64,000 nt of DNA from an uncultured bacterium (GTDB lineage Bacteria > Krumholzibacteriota > Krumholzibacteriia > JACNKJ01): assembly GCA_963695095.1 (NCBI GenBank), contig CAVOFT010000001.1, forward strand, positions 2,880,001 through 2,944,000, in the 5' to 3' direction. A program made the translations under genes and the position numbers. How positions within the stretch are numbered: position 1 is the stretch's first letter; every line of letters starts with the position of its first letter. Of the stretch, positions 29,758 to 41,021 are shown in pieces. The notes beneath the pieces were generated by a model. It saw only the letters and a list, made by a program, of their open reading frames with translations, ran no database searches and was not told the origin of the DNA.

Positions 29758-31899
29758 CTAGAGGGACAGCCGGCTCCCGATCTGGAAGATCGCCAGCGAG
29801 AGCAGGTAGGCGAGGCCCGTCAGACCCAGCCACTGCGCCGCGGCCAGGCTCCAGCGTCCGGACTCCCGCCGCGTGATGGCGAAGGTGGCCATGCAGGGCG
29901 TGGCCAGCAGCGCGAAGACCAGGATCGAGAGCCCCTGCAGGGGGCTGTAGTGGCCGGCGAGCGCCGCGCGCAGGCCGCTGGAGTTCTGCGCTGGGTCCCC
30001 CATCGCGAAGATGATGCCGAGCTGGGCGACGAAGACCTCCTTGGCCGCGAAGGCGCCGAGGAAGGCCGTGTTGATGCGCCAGTCGAAGCCCAGCGGCGCC
30101 ATCGCCGGCTGCAGGGCCTGGCCGATGCGCCCGGCCAGCGAAAACTCCAGGGCCTCGGCGGCCCGCGCCGCGGAGAGCGCCGCGGGGTCCGCACCCGGGC
30201 CGAGCAGCGCATCGGCACGGTAGCTCTCCGGCTGCGGGAAGCTCATCAGGATCCACAGCAGCACCGAGATGCCCAGGATCAAGGTGCCCGCCTTGCGCAG
30301 GTACATGGAGGCGCGCTGCCAGACGTGGATGCTGATGCTGCGGCCCGTCGGCCGCCGGTAGGGCGGCAGCTCCATGACGAAGGGCGTGGCCAGGCCGGCC
30401 AGCACGCTGCGGCTCAAGATGCGCGCCACGATCAGCCCCAGGCCGATGCCGAGCAGGTAGAGGCCGAAGAGCACGGGCGTGTGCCAGGCCCGCGGGAAGA
30501 AGGCCGGGATCATCAGCAGGTAGATCGGCAGGCGAGCGCCGCACGAAATGAAGGGCAGGATCAGCATCGTCACCAGGCGGTCGCGGCGGCTCGGCAGGGT
30601 GCGCGTGGCCATGATCGCCGGTATCGTGCAGCCGAAGCCGATCAGCATGGGGATGAAGCTCTTGCCGTGCAGGCCGAAGCGGTGCATCACCCGGTCCATG
30701 ATGAAGGCCGCCCGCGCCATGTAGCCCGTGTCCTCGAGCAGGCTGATGCCCAGGAAGAGCAGCACGATGTTGGGCAGGAAGACGAGCACGCCACCCACGC
30801 CGCCGAGAATGCCGTCGACGACGAGGCTCTCGAGCCAGACGAAGCGGCCGGCCGGCCAGAGGGCCGCCGCCCGGCCGCCCAGCCAGCCGAAGAGGGCGTC
30901 GATGCCGTCCATCAGCGGCGCGCCGAGGCTGAAGGTGAGCCAGAACAGGCCGTACATGAACGCCAAGAACAATGGGAGGCCAAGCACGCGATGCGTGAGC
31001 ACGGCGTCGATGCGCTCGCTTTCGGTGACGCGATCCACGCGCGCGGGCCGGCGCGTGACCTCCCGCGCCAGGCCGGCGGCGAAGCCGTAGCGGCGATCGG
31101 CGATGAGCACGGCCACGGGGTCGCCCAGGCGGCGCGCCAGGCGCTCGTTGACGGCGGCCAGGTGCTCGCGCAGGGCGGTGAGATCGGCCACCTGCGCCTC
31201 GACGGCCGCCAGCACTTCCATGTCGCCCTCGAGCAGCTTGACGGCGGCGTAGCGGCGCGGGAGGCGCAGCTCGCCGAGCGGGGCGAGGCGCGCTTCGAGC
31301 GCGGCGATCTCTGGCTCGAGGTCACTGCCGTAGTCCACGCGCGGCAGCTCGGCGCGGCGGCTCGCCGCCAGGCGCAGGCGCTGGCGCAGCTCGTCGATGC
31401 CGGCGCCCTTGTGGCCCACGGTCTCGGCGACCATGGCCCCGGTCAGCTCGCCCAGCCGCTCGACGTCGAGCAGCTGGCCCTGGCCGCGGGCGATGTCGGC
31501 CATGTTGAGCACGAGCACGAGATTGACCTCCAGCTCCATGAGCTGGACGGCCAGGTGCAGGTTGCGCTCGAGGTTGGAGCTGTCCAGCACGTCGACCACG
31601 ACGTCCGGCCGCTCGTCGATGAGGAAGCGGCGGGCCACGCGCTCCTCGTCGCTGTGGGCGTGGAGGCTGTAGGTGCCCGGCAGGTCGACGATCTGCATCG
31701 GCCCGCCCACGCCGCGCAGGCGCCCCCACTTCTTCTCGACGGTTACTCCAGGATAGTTGCCGACGTGCTGGTGTCCGCCGGTGAGGCGATTGAAGAGGCT
31801 GGTCTTGCCCGAGTTGGGATTGCCGGCCAGGGCCACGGTGATCTCGCGGCCGCGCAGCAGCTCGCCGGGAAAGGCCGCCGTGCTACCCGACGTGCGCAT
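29758..31899 (-). CDS. feoB: Ferrous iron transport protein B
   Basis: GNPNSGKT, GNYPGVTVE, DLPGTYSL, NMAD, GFGC, CGARLP, FVMELPPY, AAKEV, TPCMAT. Confidence 0.97.
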   Translation of the reverse strand: MRTSGSTAAFPGELLRGREITVALAGNPNSGKTSLFNRLTGGHQHVGNYPGVTVEKKWGRLRGVGGPMQIVDLPGTYSLHAHSDEERVARRFLIDERPDVVVDVLDSSNLERNLHLAVQLMELEVNLVLVLNMADIARGQGQLLDVERLGELTGAMVAETVGHKGAGIDELRQRLRLAASRRAELPRVDYGSDLEPEIAALEARLAPLGELRLPRRYAAVKLLEGDMEVLAAVEAQVADLTALREHLAAVNERLARRLGDPVAVLIADRRYGFAAGLAREVTRRPARVDRVTESERIDAVLTHRVLGLPLFLAFMYGLFWLTFSLGAPLMDGIDALFGWLGGRAAALWPAGRFVWLESLVVDGILGGVGGVLVFLPNIVLLFLGISLLEDTGYMARAAFIMDRVMHRFGLHGKSFIPMLIGFGCTIPAIMATRTLPSRRDRLVTMLILPFISCGARLPIYLLMIPAFFPRAWHTPVLFGLYLLGIGLGLIVARILSRSVLAGLATPFVMELPPYRRPTGRSISIHVWQRASMYLRKAGTLILGISVLLWILMSFPQPESYRADALLGPGADPAALSAARAAEALEFSLAGRIGQALQPAMAPLGFDWRINTAFLGAFAAKEVFVAQLGIIFAMGDPAQNSSGLRAALAGHYSPLQGLSILVFALLATPCMATFAITRRESGRWSLAAAQWLGLTGLAYLLSLAIFQIGSRLSL

Positions 31900-32674
31900 C
31901 TAGAGCCGCTCCACGCCGATGGTGGCCGCCTCGGCCTTGCGCAGCGACAGGTGGCAGCCCTTGATCTTGATGTCGATGGGATCGCCCAGCGGCGCCACGC
32001 CCTGCATGCCCACCTCGACGCCGGGCAGCAGGCCCAGGTCCAGCAGGCGCTGGCGGATCTCCGTGGCCGCGCGCACGCTGACCACGCGGGCGCGCTGGCC
32101 CGGGCGCGAGACGGTCCAGCGTGGTCAGCTCGCGCCCGCGCGCGAAGAGGCCCACGACCTCGGGCCCGAAGGCCTCGGTGCAGGCCCGGGTGCGGCAGGC
32201 CATCAGGGCGCCCGCTTCGCCGTCCTGCTCGCGGCGGCTGGCCGCGTAGCAGTCGTGGAAGCGCTCGACGAGATCCCCGCCTGCCCGCGGGCAGCCGCCG
32301 AGGAACTCGACGAAGCCGGCCAGGCGGTCCAGGGTCTCGATGCTGATGATGTGTTCGATTGAGCAGGCTTCGCGACTGGCGGTGTCCAGGGGCACGCCGA
32401 GGATTTCGTTGAGGAAGCGCGTGATGAACTCGTGGCGCTGCAGCACGCGATTGGCCAGCTCGCGGCCGGAGGGCGTGAGCACGGCCGTCTCGCGGGCGCG
32501 ATAGTCGATGAGGCCCTCGGCGGCCAGGCGCTTGAGCGCCCCGGTCACGGAGGCCATGCGCACGTCCTTGCGCTGGGCGATCTCCTTGGCCCGCGCCTCG
32601 CCCTTCTCCTGCTCGAGCTGCAGGATGATCTCCAGGTAGTCTTCGAGGCTCTCGCCGAGTTCGCCGACGTGCAT
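31900..32674 (-). CDS. DtxR/MntR-family metal regulator fused to FeoA (one frameshift near 32100)
   Basis: SLEDYLE, SVTGALKRL, RHE, EACSIEH; removing one base joins TTLDRLAPGQRARVV...RLLDLGL.PG...APLGDPI...LSLRKAEA. Confidence 0.85.
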
Positions 32675-32706: not shown

Positions 32707-32720
32707 TTAGTCCAGGCTAA
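32707..32720. promoter_or_regulatory. Candidate DtxR/MntR-family operator TTAGTCCAGGCTAA
   Basis: TTAG-N6-CTAA palindrome about 33 bp upstream of the regulator start, in the divergent intergenic region. Confidence 0.6.
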
Positions 32721-32817
32721 GTCCAGAGACAAGATGAATTCGGTGACGGCGACAGGAATCCGGACCGCGTGCCCCGACGCCTTGCGCGCCCGCGGCCCCA
32801 ACCCTTACCCTCCGGCC

Positions 32818-33108
32818 ATGGTCCACCGCTGGCGCGCCCGCCTGCTCATCCTGCTGCTCGGCTTCTGGCTGCTCGGTCAGGGCGCGCACGACCTGCTGGT
32901 CCATGCGGGCGAGTGGAGCCATGACCCCAACGGCGACCACCGCTTCTGCTCACTCTTCCAGGGGCTGGAGCAGGTCGAGTGGGCCGGCATCCACCTGCCG
33001 ACGCCGGAGGGACGCTGCCCCGAGCAGCCGCTGCCCGCTCCTGTCCCTGCCGGCCCCAGCTCCCGCCCCCTGGGTATCGCGAGCCGCGCCCCGCCCCTCC
33101 CCGTCTGA
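32818..33108 (+). CDS. DUF2946-like leader protein with C-terminal RAPP motif
   Basis: N-terminal hydrophobic segment, His-rich H..C patch, Pro-rich linker, ends ASRAPPLPV. Confidence 0.75.
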   Translation: MVHRWRARLLILLLGFWLLGQGAHDLLVHAGEWSHDPNGDHRFCSLFQGLEQVEWAGIHLPTPEGRCPEQPLPAPVPAGPSSRPLGIASRAPPLPV

Positions 33109-33171
33109 GCGCGCAGTCCACCAGCACTCGCAGGGCTCGGAAGGCCGGCCAGGCCGGCCGGGAGGATTCTC

Positions 33172-34323
33172 ATGCACCGACTTCAGCTCGTGGCGGCTCT
33201 CGCCGCCCTGCTCACCGGCGCCGGCAGCGCTAGCGCCTCGTCCACCGCCAGCGGCGTCAGCCGCGACTTCAACCCCGCCATCAGCGTCAACACCCTGCTC
33301 GTCTTTCGCGAGGGACTCATCGCCGCGGCAACGGCCGACAGCATCGCTGCCGAGCACGAGCACGCCAGCGCCACGGAGGGCTTCGCCGTCCAGGAAACCG
33401 AGCTGCAATTCACGGCCAGCGTGGACCCCTACGCCCGCGCCAGCGTGACGCTCGCCATGCACGGCACGGAGAGCATCGAGGCCGAGGAGGCCTTTCTCCA
33501 GCTTCTCCAGCTCCCGCGCGGGCTGGGCCTGCGCGCCGGCGCCTTCTACTGGGAGTTCGGCAAGCACAACACCCTGCACACGCACCAGTACCCCTTCGTC
33601 GAGCGACCCGTGGCCTGGGACGCCCTGCTCGGCGAGCACGGGCTCTCCGGTGCCGCCATCGAGCTGTCCTGGCTCACCCCCCTGCCCTGGTTCGCGGAGC
33701 TGACCGCCACGGCCGCGCCGCTGGGCGAGGCCGTCTACGGCGAGCACGCCGAGGCCCCTGCGGACGAGTGGTCCGGCGGCCTGCGCCTGCGCCAGCTCTG
33801 GGATCTGGGCGACCGCACGACGCTCGAGGCCGGCGGCTCCTGGTTCACGGGCGACACCGCGCACGAACACGACGATGCGCTGGAGATCGGCACCCGGCAC
33901 TTCCTCGGCGCCGACCTTACCGTGAAGTGGACCGGCGGCGGCGCCAACCCGCGCGCGCTCGAGCTGCAAGCCGAGTGGCTGCGCCGCCACGACAGCCTGG
34001 ACGACGGCGGAGAGATCCTCGACGACGATGGCCTCTACGCCGCTATCCGCGGTCGCGTGACGCGGCGCTTCTGGCTCAGCGGGCGCTTCGATCTGCTCCG
34101 CGCCGCCCAGCACGCGGAGGCCGCCGCCGAAGTGGATGAAGGGCACAGCCACGGAGCCCTGCCCGATACGGACACCTGGACCGCCTCGCTGGCCTTCGTG
34201 CCCAGCGAGTTCCAGGCCTGGCGACTGGATCTGCTCTCCCGCGAGATCGCGGGCGAGCGCGACACCGGCCTGCGCGCGCAGGTGAACTTCACCATCGGCA
34301 GCCACCCGGCGCACCGCTACTAG
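33172..34323 (+). CDS. His-rich outer-membrane porin-like protein of a metal-uptake operon
   Basis: Signal peptide; FNPAISV, VDPY, EEAF, FGKHNTLHTH, PSEFQ..R, IGSHPAHRY. Confidence 0.75.
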   Translation: MHRLQLVAALAALLTGAGSASASSTASGVSRDFNPAISVNTLLVFREGLIAAATADSIAAEHEHASATEGFAVQETELQFTASVDPYARASVTLAMHGTESIEAEEAFLQLLQLPRGLGLRAGAFYWEFGKHNTLHTHQYPFVERPVAWDALLGEHGLSGAAIELSWLTPLPWFAELTATAAPLGEAVYGEHAEAPADEWSGGLRLRQLWDLGDRTTLEAGGSWFTGDTAHEHDDALEIGTRHFLGADLTVKWTGGGANPRALELQAEWLRRHDSLDDGGEILDDDGLYAAIRGRVTRRFWLSGRFDLLRAAQHAEAAAEVDEGHSHGALPDTDTWTASLAFVPSEFQAWRLDLLSREIAGERDTGLRAQVNFTIGSHPAHRY

Positions 34324-34333
34324 GAGGACGGCC

Positions 34334-35260
34334 ATGCGCATACGACTCGCCCTCACCGCGCTGCTCCTCTGTGCGGCAACGCTCACCGTGGCCCCACCTC
34401 TGCGCGCCGCCGCGCTCGAGGTGGCGGCCACCCTGCCCGAACTCGCCCTGCTCGTCGAGGCCGTCGGCGGCGAGCGCGTCGAGGTCACGGCCCTCGCCCG
34501 CGCCGACGAGGACCCTCACTCCCTCGCCGCCAAGCCCAGCCACAGCCGCCGCCTGCTGAAGGCCGATCTCGTCGTCTACAACGGCCTGCAGCTCGAGGTG
34601 GGTTGGCTGCCGCTGCTGCTGCAGGGGGCGCGCAATCCGGCGCTGCTCGCCGGGGGCAGGGGCAGTCTCGATCTCGCCAGCGCGATCGAGCCGCTCGAGG
34701 TGCCCACGGGCAGCATCGATCGCAGCCAGGGCGACGTGCACCCCGAGGGCAACCCGCACTACACGGTGGATCCCGGGCTCTACCCCGAGCTCGCCGACGC
34801 CGTCGCCGAGCGCCTCGCCGCGCTCGACCCCGCCGGCGCCGCCGGCTACCGCGACGCCGCGGCTCGCTTCCGCGCCGATTGGGAGCCGCGCCTGGCGGCC
34901 TGGCGGGAGCGCCTGGCGCCCGCGGTGGACAGGGCGGTGATCAGCTACCACAAGCAGTGGGAGTACTTCGCACGGCGCTTCGGCCTGCGCATCGTGGACT
35001 ACATCGAGGACCGGCCGGGCATCCCGCCCTCGCCGCGCCACGTGAGCGAGCTCGTCCAGCGTATCCAGACCGGCGGCGTGGCGCTGGTGATCTATGCCGA
35101 CCTCACCCACCCTGAAGTGCCCGAACGCCTCGCCGCGCGCGGCGGCTGCCGGGCGCTGGCCTTGCCGCAGTCGCCCGGCAGCCGGCCGGGCACGGAGACG
35201 CTGGTCACTTGGTTCGACACCCTGGTTGGCACGCTAGCCTCCGCAATCGAGGAGCCTTGA
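34334..35260 (+). CDS. Zn/Mn (cluster A-I) ABC substrate-binding protein
   Basis: DPH, NGLQLEVGWLP, GDVHPEGNPHY, YHKQWEYF, E..PGIPPSPRH. Confidence 0.9.
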   Translation: MRIRLALTALLLCAATLTVAPPLRAAALEVAATLPELALLVEAVGGERVEVTALARADEDPHSLAAKPSHSRRLLKADLVVYNGLQLEVGWLPLLLQGARNPALLAGGRGSLDLASAIEPLEVPTGSIDRSQGDVHPEGNPHYTVDPGLYPELADAVAERLAALDPAGAAGYRDAAARFRADWEPRLAAWRERLAPAVDRAVISYHKQWEYFARRFGLRIVDYIEDRPGIPPSPRHVSELVQRIQTGGVALVIYADLTHPEVPERLAARGGCRALALPQSPGSRPGTETLVTWFDTLVGTLASAIEEP

Positions 35261-35261
35261 G

Positions 35262-36083
35262 ATGGAACTGCTGCGCATCATGGCCGCGCCCTTCGCAGCC
35301 AGCGTCGTGCTGGTGCTCATTCACGCCTACCTCGGCGGCCACGTGCTGCAGCGCGGCGTGATCTTCGTGGATCTCGCCATGGCTCAGTTCGCCGCCCTCG
35401 GCGCCACGGCCGGCTTGCTCTTCGGCGTCGAGCTGGAGAGCCGGCCGGCCTATTTCCTCGGGCTCGCCGCCTCGCTGGGGGCGGCGGGCCTCTTCGCCCT
35501 CTCACGCCAGCACCTGCGCCGCGTGCCGCAGGAGGCGGTGATCGGCATCGCCTATGTGTTCGCCTCGAGCGCGGCCTTGATCATCGCCGCGCGCAGCCCC
35601 CACGGCGCCGAGCACGTGGAGCAGATGCTGGTCGGCGCGCTGCTCTGGGTGAGCTGGCAGGAAGTGCTGAAGACGGCCCTGCTCTACGGCCTGCTCGGAG
35701 CCCTGCTCTGGCGGATGCACGGTCCGCTCAGCCAGCTCAGCGCCGATCCGGACGGCGCGCGGCAGGTAGGGCGCCGGCTCTTCGGCTGGGACTTCCTCTT
35801 CTATGCGGTCTTCGCGCTGGTTGTGACCAGCTCGGTGCGCATCGCCGGCGTCCTGCTGGTCTTCAGCTTTCTCATCGTGCCCTCGGTGTTCGCCGCCCTG
35901 CGCGGCGCCCAGGGCGGCCGGCGCCTGGCCTTCGCCTGGAGCTTCGGCATCGCTACCAGCCTGGCCGGCATGCTGGCCTCCTACTGGCTGGACCTGCCCA
36001 CGGGCGCCACGGTGGTGGTGGTGATGGGCCTCGCGCTCTTCACGGCCAGCCTGCTGCCAGCCCCGCGCGCTCAGTCGAGCTGA
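35262..36083 (+). CDS. Metal ABC transporter permease (ZnuB-like)
   Basis: H.YLG.HV..RGVIFVDLA.AQ, EAVIG, GVLLVFSFLIVP, DLPTGA. Confidence 0.88.
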   Translation: MELLRIMAAPFAASVVLVLIHAYLGGHVLQRGVIFVDLAMAQFAALGATAGLLFGVELESRPAYFLGLAASLGAAGLFALSRQHLRRVPQEAVIGIAYVFASSAALIIAARSPHGAEHVEQMLVGALLWVSWQEVLKTALLYGLLGALLWRMHGPLSQLSADPDGARQVGRRLFGWDFLFYAVFALVVTSSVRIAGVLLVFSFLIVPSVFAALRGAQGGRRLAFAWSFGIATSLAGMLASYWLDLPTGATVVVVMGLALFTASLLPAPRAQSS

Positions 36084-38082: not shown

Positions 38083-38699
38083 CTACTTCTTCAGCGCCTC
38101 GAAGCGCTTCGCTACTTCGCTCCAGTTGACGACGTTCCACCAGGCGCCGATGTAGTCCGGCCGGCGGTTCTGGTAGTGCAGGTAGTAGGCGTGCTCCCAG
38201 ACGTCGAGGCCGAGGATCGGCGTGCCCGCGCCGTCCATGAGCGGGCTGTCCTGGTTGGGCGAGCTCGAGACGACGAGCTTGTCGCCCTTCGACGGAGAGC
38301 CAGGCCCAGCCGCTGCCGAAGCGCGTGGCGCCGGCGGCGGCGAACTGCTCCTTGAAGCCGTCGAAGGAGCCGAAGTCGGCGGCGATGGCCTCGGCCAGCT
38401 GCGCCCGTGGGCTCGCCGCCGCCCTTGCCGCTCATGACCTTCCAGAAGAGGTGTGGTTCCAGTGGCCGCCGCCGTTGTTGCGCACGGCCGTGCGGCTGGG
38501 CCTCGGGCACGGCGCTCAGGTCGGCGAGCAGCTTCTCGAGCGGCATGTCGCCGTGGCTGCCGCCGGCGGCCTCGAGGGCCTTGTTCAGGTTGGCGACGTA
38601 GGCGGCGTGGTGCTTGCCGTGGTGGATCTCCATGGTGCGCGCGTCGATGTGCGGCTCCAGGGCGTCGAAGTCGTAGGGCAGGTCGGGCAGCTTGTGCAT
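38083..38699 (-). CDS. sodA: Mn/Fe superoxide dismutase (several frameshifts)
   Basis: [56 protein letters not shown]. Confidence 0.9.
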
Positions 38700-38798
38700 C
38701 GTCTTCCTCTCCTTCACAGAGTCCCATCGTGGTCGGTTGGCTACGGGACCAAGATAGTCCAATTTCGGATCGAGTCAAGAAGGCCGCAAACAAAGCGG

Positions 38799-41021
38799 TT
38801 AGGGGATTTCGGGAGTGCGAGATCCGGATGCGCCGGCCTGCTGCTTCTTGAAGAAGAGCCGCAGGCTGAGGGCCAGGCTGGCCAGCTTGGTGAGGGCCGT
38901 GTCGCCGCGGCTCGTGAGCACGATGGGGATGCCGCAGCCGACGATGACGCCGGCCGTGTTGAGCCCGCTGGAGACCGTGAGCGACTTGTAGACCGCATTG
39001 CCCGCGTCGATGCCGGGCATGATGAGGATGTCCGCGTTGCCGCGGATCTCGCCGTGGTACTCCTTCTCGGCGGCGATCGCCGCATCGACCGCCACGTCGA
39101 AGCTGAGCGGCCCCTCGACCAGGCAATCCTCGCGCCCGGCGAAGTCGGCGGCGAGCTGGGCCGCCTCCACGCTGCTCTCGATGCGCGGGTTCACCTTCTC
39201 GATGGCGCTGATCACGGCCACCCGCGGCCGCGGCAGGTTGAGGCTGCGCGCCACCACCAGCGCGTTCTCGAGGATGCGCCGCTTCTTGTCGAGGTCGGGA
39301 TCCACGTTGACGCCGGCATCGCTGAGCAGCAGCAGCTTCCCCTGCTCGGCGCGCTGGAAGACGGCGACATGGCTGAAGAGCGCGCCCTCGGGCAGGCGCC
39401 CCTGCTCCTTGAGCCAGCGGAAGACCGGCGCCAGCAGTTCCTCCGTCTTCACCGAGCCCTTCATCAGGACCTGGCAGCGCCCGGCGGCGTAGAGCTCGAG
39501 GCAGGTGGCCACGGGATCCACGCTCTCCACCAGCTCGAAGTCGCTGCGGGCGAGGTCCAGGCCCACCTGCGCCGCCAGCTTGCGGGTGGCGGCGAGGTCC
39601 CCCACCAGCAGGAAGCGGGCGATCTTGTACTCGCCCTCCTCGGTGGCGCGGCGCACGGCTTCGAGCGCGTCGTCGTTGTCGGCGCCGGCGATGGCGATGG
39701 TGGGCAGAAAGAAGCGATTCACCTGCTCGCGGGTGGCCTGGATCAGCTCGTCCAGGCTGCGGATGGGGCTGCCCTGGCGCCGCCGCAGCACGGCCCGGCG
39801 GAAGACCGGCTGCTCGATGAGCCGGTTCTCGCGGCCGCGGTAGGCTGCCAGCATGTCCCGTTCCTCTTCGTAGAAGCGCAGGCAGCTCGGATCCATGAGG
39901 GCCTGCGCCATGCCGGCGGCCAGCGCCTCCTGCTCAGCCGATCCAGGCAGCCGCACGATGGGCAGGAGCCCCCCCACGCGCTCCTCGATGCGCTCGGCCA
40001 GCTCGACGCTGCGCGTGAGCCCCCCCGTGATGACGACGTAGTCCGGCCGCCCCCAGCCCGCGGCGAGCGAGAGAATGCCCTCGCTGATGCGCTGCGCGAA
40101 GAAGCGCAGGAGCAGGTTGATCTTGTCGGCCTGCTCGCGCGTGGCGCCGTGCTCGCGAAAACCGAGCAGGGTCTTGAAGTCGTTGGTGCCCGCCAGCGAG
40201 AGCAGCCCGCCCTGCCGGAAGACGCCCTTGTCCAGCTCCTCCAGGCTGATGCGGTGCTCCTGGAGCGCGAGCAGGAGGTCGTGGATGGGCAGGTTGCCGC
40301 TGCGGTTCATCGAGGGCAGGCCGCTGAAGGCGTTGATCACGCGCACGGCCTTGCCGCGATGGTGCCGAACCATGGAGATGCCGCCGCCCAGGTGGGCGCT
40401 GATCACGCTGGCCTCGACCGGATCGATGCCGAACTCCCAGGCGCTCAGGCGCAGCACGGCGCGGTGGTTGAGGTAGTGCACGGCCGTGCCGTCGGTCTTG
40501 AAGTCGCGCAGGCCGGTCATGCGGCACTCGATGTCCACCTCGTCGATGACGGGCGGGTCGGTGACGGTGATCGGGATATCGCGCGCGCCCATGTCGCCCA
40601 GGTCCTTGAGCGCCAGGGCGATGGGCACGCCCATGTTGGAGGCGTGGGCCAGCCGCGGCTGGGCGAGGTCCGCGAGCAGGGCCTCGCTGATGGGATAGGT
40701 GCCGCCGGGAATGGGCTTCAGCACGCCGCCGCGGGAGGCGATGCCTTGCAGACGGGCCAGGTCGACGCCCGTCTCGGCCAGCCAGCGCAGGATGAGGGCG
40801 GCGCGCTCCTCCGCCGTGTCCTCCTGATCGGGGCCGACGTGCACCTCGAAATCGCCGCGCTTGTCGATGCCCTCGAAGTAGGCAACCTTGGTGGAGGTGG
40901 AGCCCGGATTGATGACCAGGATGCGATAGCCCTCGCCGGCCAGGCGCTCGGCCAGCGGCGTCCCCAGCAGCCGCCGGAAGACCTCCAGCGGTGGCATCTT
41001 GCGCAGGAGCAGGGTTTTCAC
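38799..41021 (-). CDS. Butyrate kinase-phosphate butyryltransferase fusion
   Basis: Buk: [30 protein letters not shown]; Ptb: [33 protein letters not shown]; single uninterrupted frame. Confidence 0.88.

What the first reader, a model, noticed from the sequence alone, without database searches (positions are those of the whole stretch)
32818..33174. RAPP-motif leader peptide with an anti-Shine-Dalgarno upstream of a metal porin
Seen: a 96-aa ORF with an export-type N-terminus, HDLLVH...SH...DHRFC, a Pro-rich spacer and terminal RAPP (33085-33096). CCTCCC at 33096-33101 is complementary to the porin RBS GGGAGG at 33160-33165. Known: RAPP motifs stall ribosomes (ApdA/ApdP), and DUF2946 leaders (CruR, CutF) control downstream copper genes and typically carry CxxC. 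Inference: stalling frees the RBS, and metal binding during export releases the stall. The HxxC/His-rich ligand set and Zn/Mn-type cargo suggest sensing of a non-copper metal.
Basis: partly seen in the sequence, partly recalled or inferred. Interest (0 to 1): 0.72.

Follow-up and report, generated by a model that had tools for sequence, protein, structure and literature searches.

The report
Zinc-importer leader that stalls its ribosome
A small, widely conserved gene in front of a porin and zinc-type importer operon encodes a peptide that likely jams its own ribosome and so uncovers the next gene's start signal, probably acting as a built-in zinc switch where Vibrio appears to use a repressor protein instead.

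Summary
The 96-aa ORF (32818-33108), RAPP and the CCTCCC:GGGAGG pairing are there. An R[AG]PP-ending leader precedes the porin in 72 of 84 related loci (controls 3 and 0). The last Cys lies 43-46 residues before the Arg in 68 of 68 leaders, as in CruR. Stall-site RNA pairs with its own porin RBS better than with swapped ones (z -11.9). Added here: (1) the leaders look leaderless (-10 hexamer 5-8 nt before ATG in 35 of 72; 2.5% background). (2) The same porin-SBP-permease cassette in Vibrio campbellii has no leader but two Zur-type boxes, and its V. parahaemolyticus counterpart is a published zinc-starvation operon; this is the best evidence for zinc. (3) HxxC is a minority variant (10 of 70; CxxC 47), so it does not by itself indicate a non-copper metal. 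It is a DUF2946/CruR-like leader on a different cargo. Non-copper sensing by such leaders is already proposed in print, similar pairings sit in published source data, and this scan found the system before on other DNA (8 notes). Stalling, the metal and the direction of control are untested.

The parts
32782..32811 (+). Predicted sigma-70-type promoter (-35 TTGCGC, 18-nt spacer, -10 TACCCT) ending 6 nt before the leader ATG, so a likely leaderless transcript
   Evidence: Family signal 35 of 72 vs 2.5% of any ATG and 1 of 79 porin starts; coordinates; too weak in this window for the strict scan, which found 0 promoters
32818..33108 (+). 96-aa RAPP leader ORF, DUF2946/CruR-like
   Evidence: no Pfam or NCBIfam hit on its own
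32842..32886 (+). Hydrophobic export signal or signal anchor (L9-A23)
   Evidence: Sequence; AF2 helix 2-29; cleavage not testable here
32887..32949 (+). Predicted metal site: His24, His29, His35, His41, Cys44 (HxxC where most relatives have CxxC)
   Evidence: Cys44 at least 90% and His24 at least 70% conserved in 70 leaders; motif classes
33085..33096 (+). RAPP arrest motif; Arg is 46 residues after Cys44 (45 between, as in CruR)
   Evidence: stall position RAP/P taken from ApdA/ApdP
33096..33101 (+). Anti-Shine-Dalgarno CCTCCC, inside the predicted footprint of a ribosome stalled with 33091-33093 in the P site
33104..33159 (+). Two predicted intergenic hairpins (33104-33141, 33143-33159) that bring anti-SD and SD together
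   Evidence: MFE and centroid fold
33160..33165 (+). Shine-Dalgarno GGGAGG of the porin
33172..34323 (+). 383-aa outer-membrane porin, His-rich; family often mislabelled 'zinc-regulated TonB-dependent receptor'
   Evidence: AF2 pLDDT 87.8, beta barrel; Foldseek OmpT/OprP/Omp32; Atlas structure hit TM 0.85 for homologue P0019; homologous to V. campbellii porin, profile E 7e-55
34334..35260 (+). ZnuA-family solute-binding protein, ZnuA2/Vpa1307 type, His62/His142/His206 plus conserved His136
   Evidence: Pfam ZnuA; best PDB hit a zinc-uptake SBP, 2ov1/1pq4
35262..36083 (+). ABC-3 (ZnuB-like) permease; no ATPase gene in the cassette
32707..32720 (.). DtxR-type palindrome TTAGTCCAGGCTAA; probably the operator of the divergent dtxR-feoA-feoB operon, about 60 nt from the leader's -35
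   Evidence: Only match of the pattern on contig C1; similar palindromes in L001, L002, L004, L123; family assignment of the motif is recalled

Best explanation
The 96-aa gene is a conserved leader that likely stalls its own ribosome at RAPP when zinc is scarce, and the stalled ribosome would then cover the anti-Shine-Dalgarno and free the start signal of the porin-ZnuA2-ZnuB2 importer. Steps: (1) Transcription likely starts at or next to the leader ATG (inferred from family promoter placement). [quoted passage not shown] (3) It then covers 33096-33101, and the computed cost of opening the porin SD falls from about 9 to about 2 kcal/mol (computed). (4) With zinc present, the His/Cys site 45 residues upstream, just outside the exit tunnel, would fold around the ion and pull the chain free (inferred from CruR). 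The ribosome terminates, the anti-SD:SD helix re-forms and import is shut off. Shown: anatomy, conservation, fixed spacing, covarying pairing, cargo homology. Inferred: translation, stalling, the metal, the direction, the compartment of sensing. Separate odds: arrest leader controlling the porin about 0.85; zinc given that about 0.7; metal releases rather than induces the stall about 0.85.
For: Leader in 72 of 84 loci and in 35 of 40 further phylum loci directly before the porin; 4 of the other 5 have it one gene earlier. Cys-to-Arg distance 43-46 in 68 of 68; CruR has 45 intervening residues and loses control on +5. 25 of 70 leaders hit DUF2946 at E up to 0.1. In 79 deduplicated loci, native footprint:RBS duplex averages -14.8 vs -11.6 kcal/mol when swapped (0 of 20,000 permutations); 38 of 79 beat synonymous recoding at p<0.1. 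The signal peaks at the RAPP footprint (z -11.2) and is absent 45-93 nt upstream (z -0.5 to -1.4); masking the footprint lowers RBS opening cost by 2 kcal/mol or more in 53 of 66 loci. Compensatory changes in 4 of 16 pairs in one clade. Zinc: V. campbellii carries the homologous three genes with no RAPP ORF and two TGTTAT-N3-ATAACA boxes, which 0 of 65 leader promoters have. The V. parahaemolyticus omr-znuA2-znuB2 operon is listed in the Zur regulon and rises 283-1034-fold on zinc limitation (PMC9817125); Vpa1307 aids growth in TPEN through its His residues (PMC3794297). The cassette with leader occurs in 6 genomes, 92-99% complete, with no heme-copper oxidase subunit I match (G031, G033, G040, G042, G052, G053). 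No copper-type family among 184 neighbouring ORFs scanned.
Against: No experiment on this family; no RNA data. The window's own anti-SD is not special against recoding (p 0.50), Pro-Pro codons are inherently complementary to G-rich RBSs, and RNAalifold finds only a weak consensus in the window's clade (-0.5 kcal/mol, 1 of 7 pairs compensatory). After masking, the first four SD bases are still mostly paired in a local hairpin (unpaired 0.04-0.35). The genome already has a Fur-family gene with znuACB and a DtxR-family gene with troABCD, so a second zinc route is not obviously needed. CxxC, the motif that senses copper in CruR, is the majority form. Deleting VP_RS21425 alone did not impair growth in TPEN in RIMD2210633, and TPEN is not zinc-specific (own knowledge). 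The Zur box of this lineage is unknown, so Zur control of the leader promoter is not excluded; a Fur/Zur-like pattern at 2 mismatches appears in 5 of 65 vs about 1 expected. In this family the cassette sits back to back with dtxR-feoAB. Loci are kin, so z values overstate.
Confidence: 0.55

Rival explanations
1. Same arrest-and-unmask switch, but the sensed and imported metal is not zinc: copper (as in CruR), or Ni, Co, Mn or Fe.
For: 47 of 70 leaders have CxxC, which senses Cu in CruR. The genome has separate Zn-type and Mn-type ABC systems. dtxR-feoAB is divergent in this family and L048 has the porin right after a FeoA-domain gene. His-only CutF-like leaders precede HupE/UreJ Ni/Co genes. 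The SBP has a fourth conserved His (115 of 117).
Against: The homologous Vibrio cassette is Zur-type and zinc-starvation induced. No Cu-type neighbours in 184 ORFs. Present in genomes without COX1. An AztD-like propeller is inserted in some copies (1 of 4 hits AztD, E 8e-7, far below cut-off).
Confidence: 0.17
2. The stall controls the operon mainly through Rho-dependent transcription termination, as in CruR; the RBS pairing is secondary.
For: Closest tested relative CruR works this way. The leader's 3' half is C-rich. The window's anti-SD alone is not exceptional.
Against: Family-wide RBS-specific pairing localised to the stall footprint. Intergenic regions are mostly 45-100 nt (63 here) against 162 in CruR.
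Confidence: 0.1
3. CutF-like polarity: metal binding induces the stall, so the operon is switched on by metal excess.
For: CutF, the relative that works by SD unmasking, has this polarity and needs its signal peptide.
Against: The cargo is an importer whose Vibrio homologue is induced by starvation. The motif is RAPP at CruR spacing rather than CutF's PPP/CxxxC. Single-Cys leaders cannot form the intramolecular disulfide proposed for CutF.
Confidence: 0.07
4. A metal-independent secretion or redox monitor (SecM/ApdP-like) that ties porin synthesis to export capacity or thiol state.
For: Export signal plus RAPP is the anatomy of ApdA/ApdP.
Against: Fixed Cys-Arg spacing and conserved His; His count rises when one Cys is lost (mean 6.3 in 16 vs 3.5 in 54); cargo is a metal importer in 75 of 79 loci.
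Confidence: 0.06
5. The ORF is an ordinary small exported metal-binding protein (chaperone) of the operon with no cis-regulatory role.
For: Export signal and His/Cys cluster; first gene of the operon.
Against: Mean column identity only 19% with R, P, P nearly invariant; AF2 model unstructured after residue 51; RNA pairing conserved at the stall site; absent from the Vibrio copy.
Confidence: 0.04

Closest known systems
CruR (Bp2923), DUF2946/PF11162, Bordetella pertussis (PMC9426467; passages and sections 9-10 read)
   Same: First gene of a metal-uptake operon; export signal; Cys motif with 45 residues before a C-terminal RAPP; stall needed for downstream expression.
   Different: HxxC instead of CxxC in this copy; cargo is porin-ZnuA2-ZnuB2, not a TonB copper transporter; short intergenic region with covarying anti-SD, whereas CruR acts through Rho; likely leaderless mRNA; below Pfam detection.
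CutF, Rhodobacter capsulatus (PMC9973294 passages; bioRxiv 10.1101/2025.02.05.636593 passages)
   Same: Exported uORF whose stall unmasks the next gene's SD.
   Different: CutF has CxxxC and PPP, is induced by Cu and controls detoxification; its stem-loop is intergenic, while here the anti-SD lies in the leader's last codons.
Vibrio omr-znuA2-znuB2 (VP_RS21430-21420; Vpa1307) (PMC9817125 passages; PMC3794297 passages)
   Same: Same three genes, same order, no ATPase; homology tested on the V. campbellii copy (porin E 7e-55 by profile, SBP and permease 31% identity).
   Different: No RAPP leader; two Zur-type boxes upstream instead.
ZrgD / DUF2607 (PF10795), first gene of the Vibrio zrg zinc operon (PMC9817125 Table 1; PMC12992588 source data rows)
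   Same: Rows show a hydrophobic N-terminus, His-rich HxxC with one Cys, and terminal RAPP (Cys48 to Arg93 in row 354, counted by hand), before a zinc-binding protein gene.
   Different: Cargo is ZrgA (DUF2796); the operon is also Zur-repressed; described as unknown function. Direct homology to this leader is not shown (1 of 70 leaders hits DUF2607, E 0.037).
ApdA/ApdP RAPP arrest peptides (PMC10951233 passages; PMC12992588 section 13)
   Same: RAPP near the C-terminus of a small exported protein.
   Different: They lack the metal motif and control protein-localisation genes.

Membership tests
DUF2946 / CruR-like uORF | Pfam PF11162 match over the cut-off | tested here: not met
   No hit for the window leader at E up to 0.1; 25 of 70 relatives hit, best E 1.5e-5
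DUF2946 / CruR-like uORF | CxxC motif | tested here: not met
   HRFC here; CxxC in 47 of 70 relatives, including the three in the sister branch on the porin tree
DUF2946 / CruR-like uORF | C-terminal RAPP a few residues before the stop | tested here: met
   RAPP-LPV-stop
DUF2946 / CruR-like uORF | About 45 residues between the Cys motif and RAPP | tested here: met
   45 intervening here; distance 43-46 in 68 of 68
DUF2946 / CruR-like uORF | N-terminal export signal or membrane anchor | tested here: met
   Hydrophobic segment and AF2 helix 2-29; no signal-peptide predictor was available
DUF2946 / CruR-like uORF | First gene of a metal-homeostasis operon | tested here: met
DUF2946 / CruR-like uORF | Copper-responsive control of the downstream gene | not testable with these tools
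   Context points away from copper
RAPP arrest peptides (ApdA/ApdP type) | [quoted passage not shown] | not testable with these tools
   Needs toeprinting; motif alone depends on upstream context (abstract)
CutF/SecM-type translational switch | RNA helix hiding the downstream SD within reach of the stalled ribosome | tested here: met
   Computed only; weak
DUF2607 / ZrgD | Pfam PF10795 match | tested here: not met
   No hit for the window leader; 1 of 70 and 5 of 150 relatives at weak E
Vibrio omr-znuA2-znuB2 cassette | Homologous porin, SBP and permease in that order without ATPase | tested here: met
Vibrio omr-znuA2-znuB2 cassette | Zur box in the promoter | tested here: inconclusive
   Gamma-type box in 0 of 65 leader promoters, but this lineage's Zur box is unknown
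TonB-dependent receptor | 22-strand barrel with plug domain | tested here: not met
   383 aa, porin-sized barrel without plug; best structural hits are porins

The most novel reading that the evidence does not exclude
A widespread ribosome-based zinc sensor: a leaderless RAPP uORF that replaces Zur on the omr-znuA2-znuB2 importer across many phyla, with repeated Cys-to-His swaps at the sensing site. Vibrio ZrgD (DUF2607), long called unknown, would be the same kind of switch and makes the idea testable in a culturable genus.
Probability: 0.45. Interest if true: 0.72.

Novelty: new variant of a known kind. Interest (0 to 1): 0.5.

Why it matters
Metal-sensing arrest leaders have been tested only for copper in the papers found. 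Roy et al. note that no riboswitch is known for Cu or Zn. A zinc-responsive leader would fill that gap and show a transcription-factor circuit (Zur in Vibrio) swapped for a nascent-chain sensor on the same cargo. The family also supplies natural CxxC, HxxC and CxC variants at fixed spacing for asking how such sensors choose a metal, and it gives a concrete hypothesis for ZrgD/DUF2607 and for a porin family mislabelled as TonB-dependent.

Tried and rejected
Pfam and NCBIfam on leader and porin: no hit. Rfam on the window region and on 24 loci, including those without a leader: no riboswitch. Sequencing runs: no RNA holder listed, no evidence either way. Window porin against plasmids: no match; a more distant homologue found two records. 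DUF2607 in the V. campbellii record: no match, and the control also did not ring, so uninformative. Atlas did not hold the window proteins; a porin homologue was used and the leader was not searched. Profile comparison A2 vs A3 is circular because A3 was found with A2 and is not used. The careful porin tree did not finish; only the quick tree is used. Supplements of PMC9973294: 3 files held, no ZnuA/zinc terms; its File S1 neighbour table may not be among them. File 8 of PMC12992588 was cut when stored and file 10 was not searched, so counts from it are lower bounds. Rejected: HxxC as proof of a non-copper metal; the DtxR palindrome as the leader's operator (found near only 1-2 of 65 leader promoters); TonB-dependent receptor; chance ORF. 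No complex prediction was run.

Full report
Observation. The MFE and centroid folds pair 33096-33101 with 33160-33165 across two hairpins; the region as a whole is no more stable than shuffles (z 0.35). Neither leader nor porin matches Pfam or NCBIfam; the next genes are a ZnuA-family SBP and an ABC-3 permease, and dtxR-feoA-feoB runs the other way. Names on porin homologues (Ca. Krumholzibacteria, Eisenbacteria) suggest the lineage; this is inference.

Conservation. Porin relatives were collected from GTDB and metagenomes (L001-L115). Of 84 non-identical loci with at least 450 nt upstream, 72 have an ORF ending R[AG]PP and 80 with near variants, against 3 and 0 in controls. Of the 4 misses, L107 and L112 have an LSPP leader slightly further up; L077 and L100 have none found. 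I then chose 40 further, mostly weaker, matches from the 142 phylum genomes with a hit: 35 have the leader directly before the porin; 4 have it before an inserted beta-propeller gene and 1 has masked bases there. A profile of the 70 leaders finds 5,987 representatives at E up to 0.001; 89 of the top 150 hit DUF2946 weakly, and some of those 150 are my own input leaders.

Family. The window leader misses DUF2946, but 25 of 70 relatives hit it, and a profile made without the window's clade ranks it first in its genome. The last Cys lies 43-46 residues before the Arg in all 68 leaders that have it; here 45 residues intervene, as in CruR. Motifs: CxxC 47, HxxC 10, CxC 6, other single-Cys 5, none 2. 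On a quick porin tree the HxxC label needs 4 changes (3 forced by well-supported branches) and the window's sister branch is CxxC. Leaders with at most one Cys carry more His (6.3 vs 3.5). So it works like CruR and is a divergent relative, but fails two literal membership tests.

RNA switch. In 79 deduplicated loci (of 103 with a usable start), the 24 nt under a ribosome stalled at RAP/P pair with their own RBS region at -14.8 kcal/mol on average and with swapped ones at -11.6 (z -11.9); 38 of 79 beat synonymous recoding at p<0.1 and 65 of 79 beat its mean. Windows 45-93 nt upstream show no such preference (73 loci). Masking the footprint lowers RBS opening cost by at least 2 kcal/mol in 53 of 66 loci with spacers up to 130 nt, and SD opening from 9.3 to 1.7-1.8 in the window. 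One clade shows compensatory changes. Against: the window itself is average under recoding (p 0.50), its clade gives a weak alignment consensus because the register shifts, and a local hairpin keeps part of the SD paired.

Leaderless start. A TAnnnT hexamer lies 5-8 nt before a leader ATG in 35 of 72 loci, against 296 of 11,788 arbitrary ATGs and 1 of 79 porin starts; TTG-type -35 elements are visible in most listed sequences (about 1.5 ATG candidates per leader were allowed). The window's copy is too degenerate for the strict scan. This supports the ATG and a dedicated transcript, but is not a mapped start.

Cargo and metal. The porin is a plug-less barrel. An SBP follows in 75 of 79 loci, with His62/136/142/206 kept in 116, 115, 114 and 103 of 117. 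An ATPase lies inside the cassette in 8 of 122 loci; many loci are truncated, and 57 have at least 900 nt beyond the permease. The V. campbellii record NZ_CP050465.1 holds the same three genes with no RAPP ORF and two TGTTAT-N3-ATAACA boxes; the pattern was recalled and agrees with Zur sites tabulated in PMC4176598. PMC9817125 names this cluster in V. parahaemolyticus, V. vulnificus and V. campbellii and reports 283-1034-fold induction on zinc limitation. By eye, the mutagenic primers for Vpa1307 in PMC3794297 encode the same residues around two His as the V. campbellii SBP. The window SBP scores 124 bits to that SBP and 52-57 to its own genome's other two. Copper is disfavoured by neighbours and by presence in six COX1-negative genomes of one family, which are kin. 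Against zinc: the genome has separate Zn- and Mn-type systems (labels from sequence reading), and one study saw no growth defect for the single znuA2 mutant.

What is known. CruR and CutF are the tested copper prototypes. Ozturk et al. already report His-only and mixed CutF-like clusters and propose Ni/Co sensing. [quoted passage not shown] No paper proposing zinc sensing by such a leader, or ZrgD as one, appeared in searches; the library lacks most subscription journals. What I saw of each paper: PMC9426467 passages and sections 9-10; PMC12992588 abstract, section 13, passages and rows of supplementary file 8; PMC9973294, PMC4176598, PMC10951233, PMC9817125, PMC3794297, PMC6103462, 10.1101/072470 and 10.1101/2025.02.05.636593 passages only; the rest search listings. 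The scan's earlier notes describe the same system in other genomes; I read them after stating my view and count them as no support.

Verdict. Real, conserved and mechanistically coherent; a new variant of the CruR/CutF kind. Zinc is the best-supported metal, from cargo and regulatory substitution rather than from the HxxC motif. Interest 0.5.

Noticed in passing
PMC12992588 file 8 with PMC9817125 Table 1: DUF2607 (ZrgD), first gene of the Zur-repressed Vibrio zrg zinc operon and called unknown, has the anatomy of a His-rich single-Cys RAPP leader; 137 RAPP uORFs precede DUF2796 genes (268-fold enrichment).
   Followed up: partly
G000:C1:about 257497-257841, + strand: Second DUF2946-like leader in this genome (CHACLCACH, ending EQPPQSA) before what reads as an RND metal-efflux operon; would be a CzcI/CutF-type case.
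   Followed up: partly
L124, L143, L148, L149: Variant operon: leader, His-rich beta-propeller (weakly AztD-like), porin, SBP, ATPase, permease.
   Followed up: partly
window 35262-36083 and relatives: ABC-3 permease without an ATPase gene in most copies and in the Vibrio copy; it may borrow the ZnuC-type ATPase at G000:C1:300269-301081 or work without one.
   Followed up: partly
window 31883-32674, - strand: DtxR-FeoA fusion is split over two frames here but intact (258-266 aa) in L001 and L003. Similar breaks in the sodA-like gene near 38112-38900 and in troCD suggest assembly indels.
   Followed up: partly
L164:3138-3494 (Sulfurovum mangrovi, NZ_CP087125.1): Same cassette in a cultured organism with a CxxC leader ending HAPP instead of RAPP, also with a -10 hexamer close to the start.
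   Followed up: no
L048, L077, L100: Porin copies with no leader found; in L048 the porin follows a FeoA-domain gene directly. No Rfam match.
   Followed up: partly
L049, L052, L061, L069, L072, L074: One clade has CxC instead of CxxC at the same spacing; L061 has a ZIP transporter after the permease.
   Followed up: no
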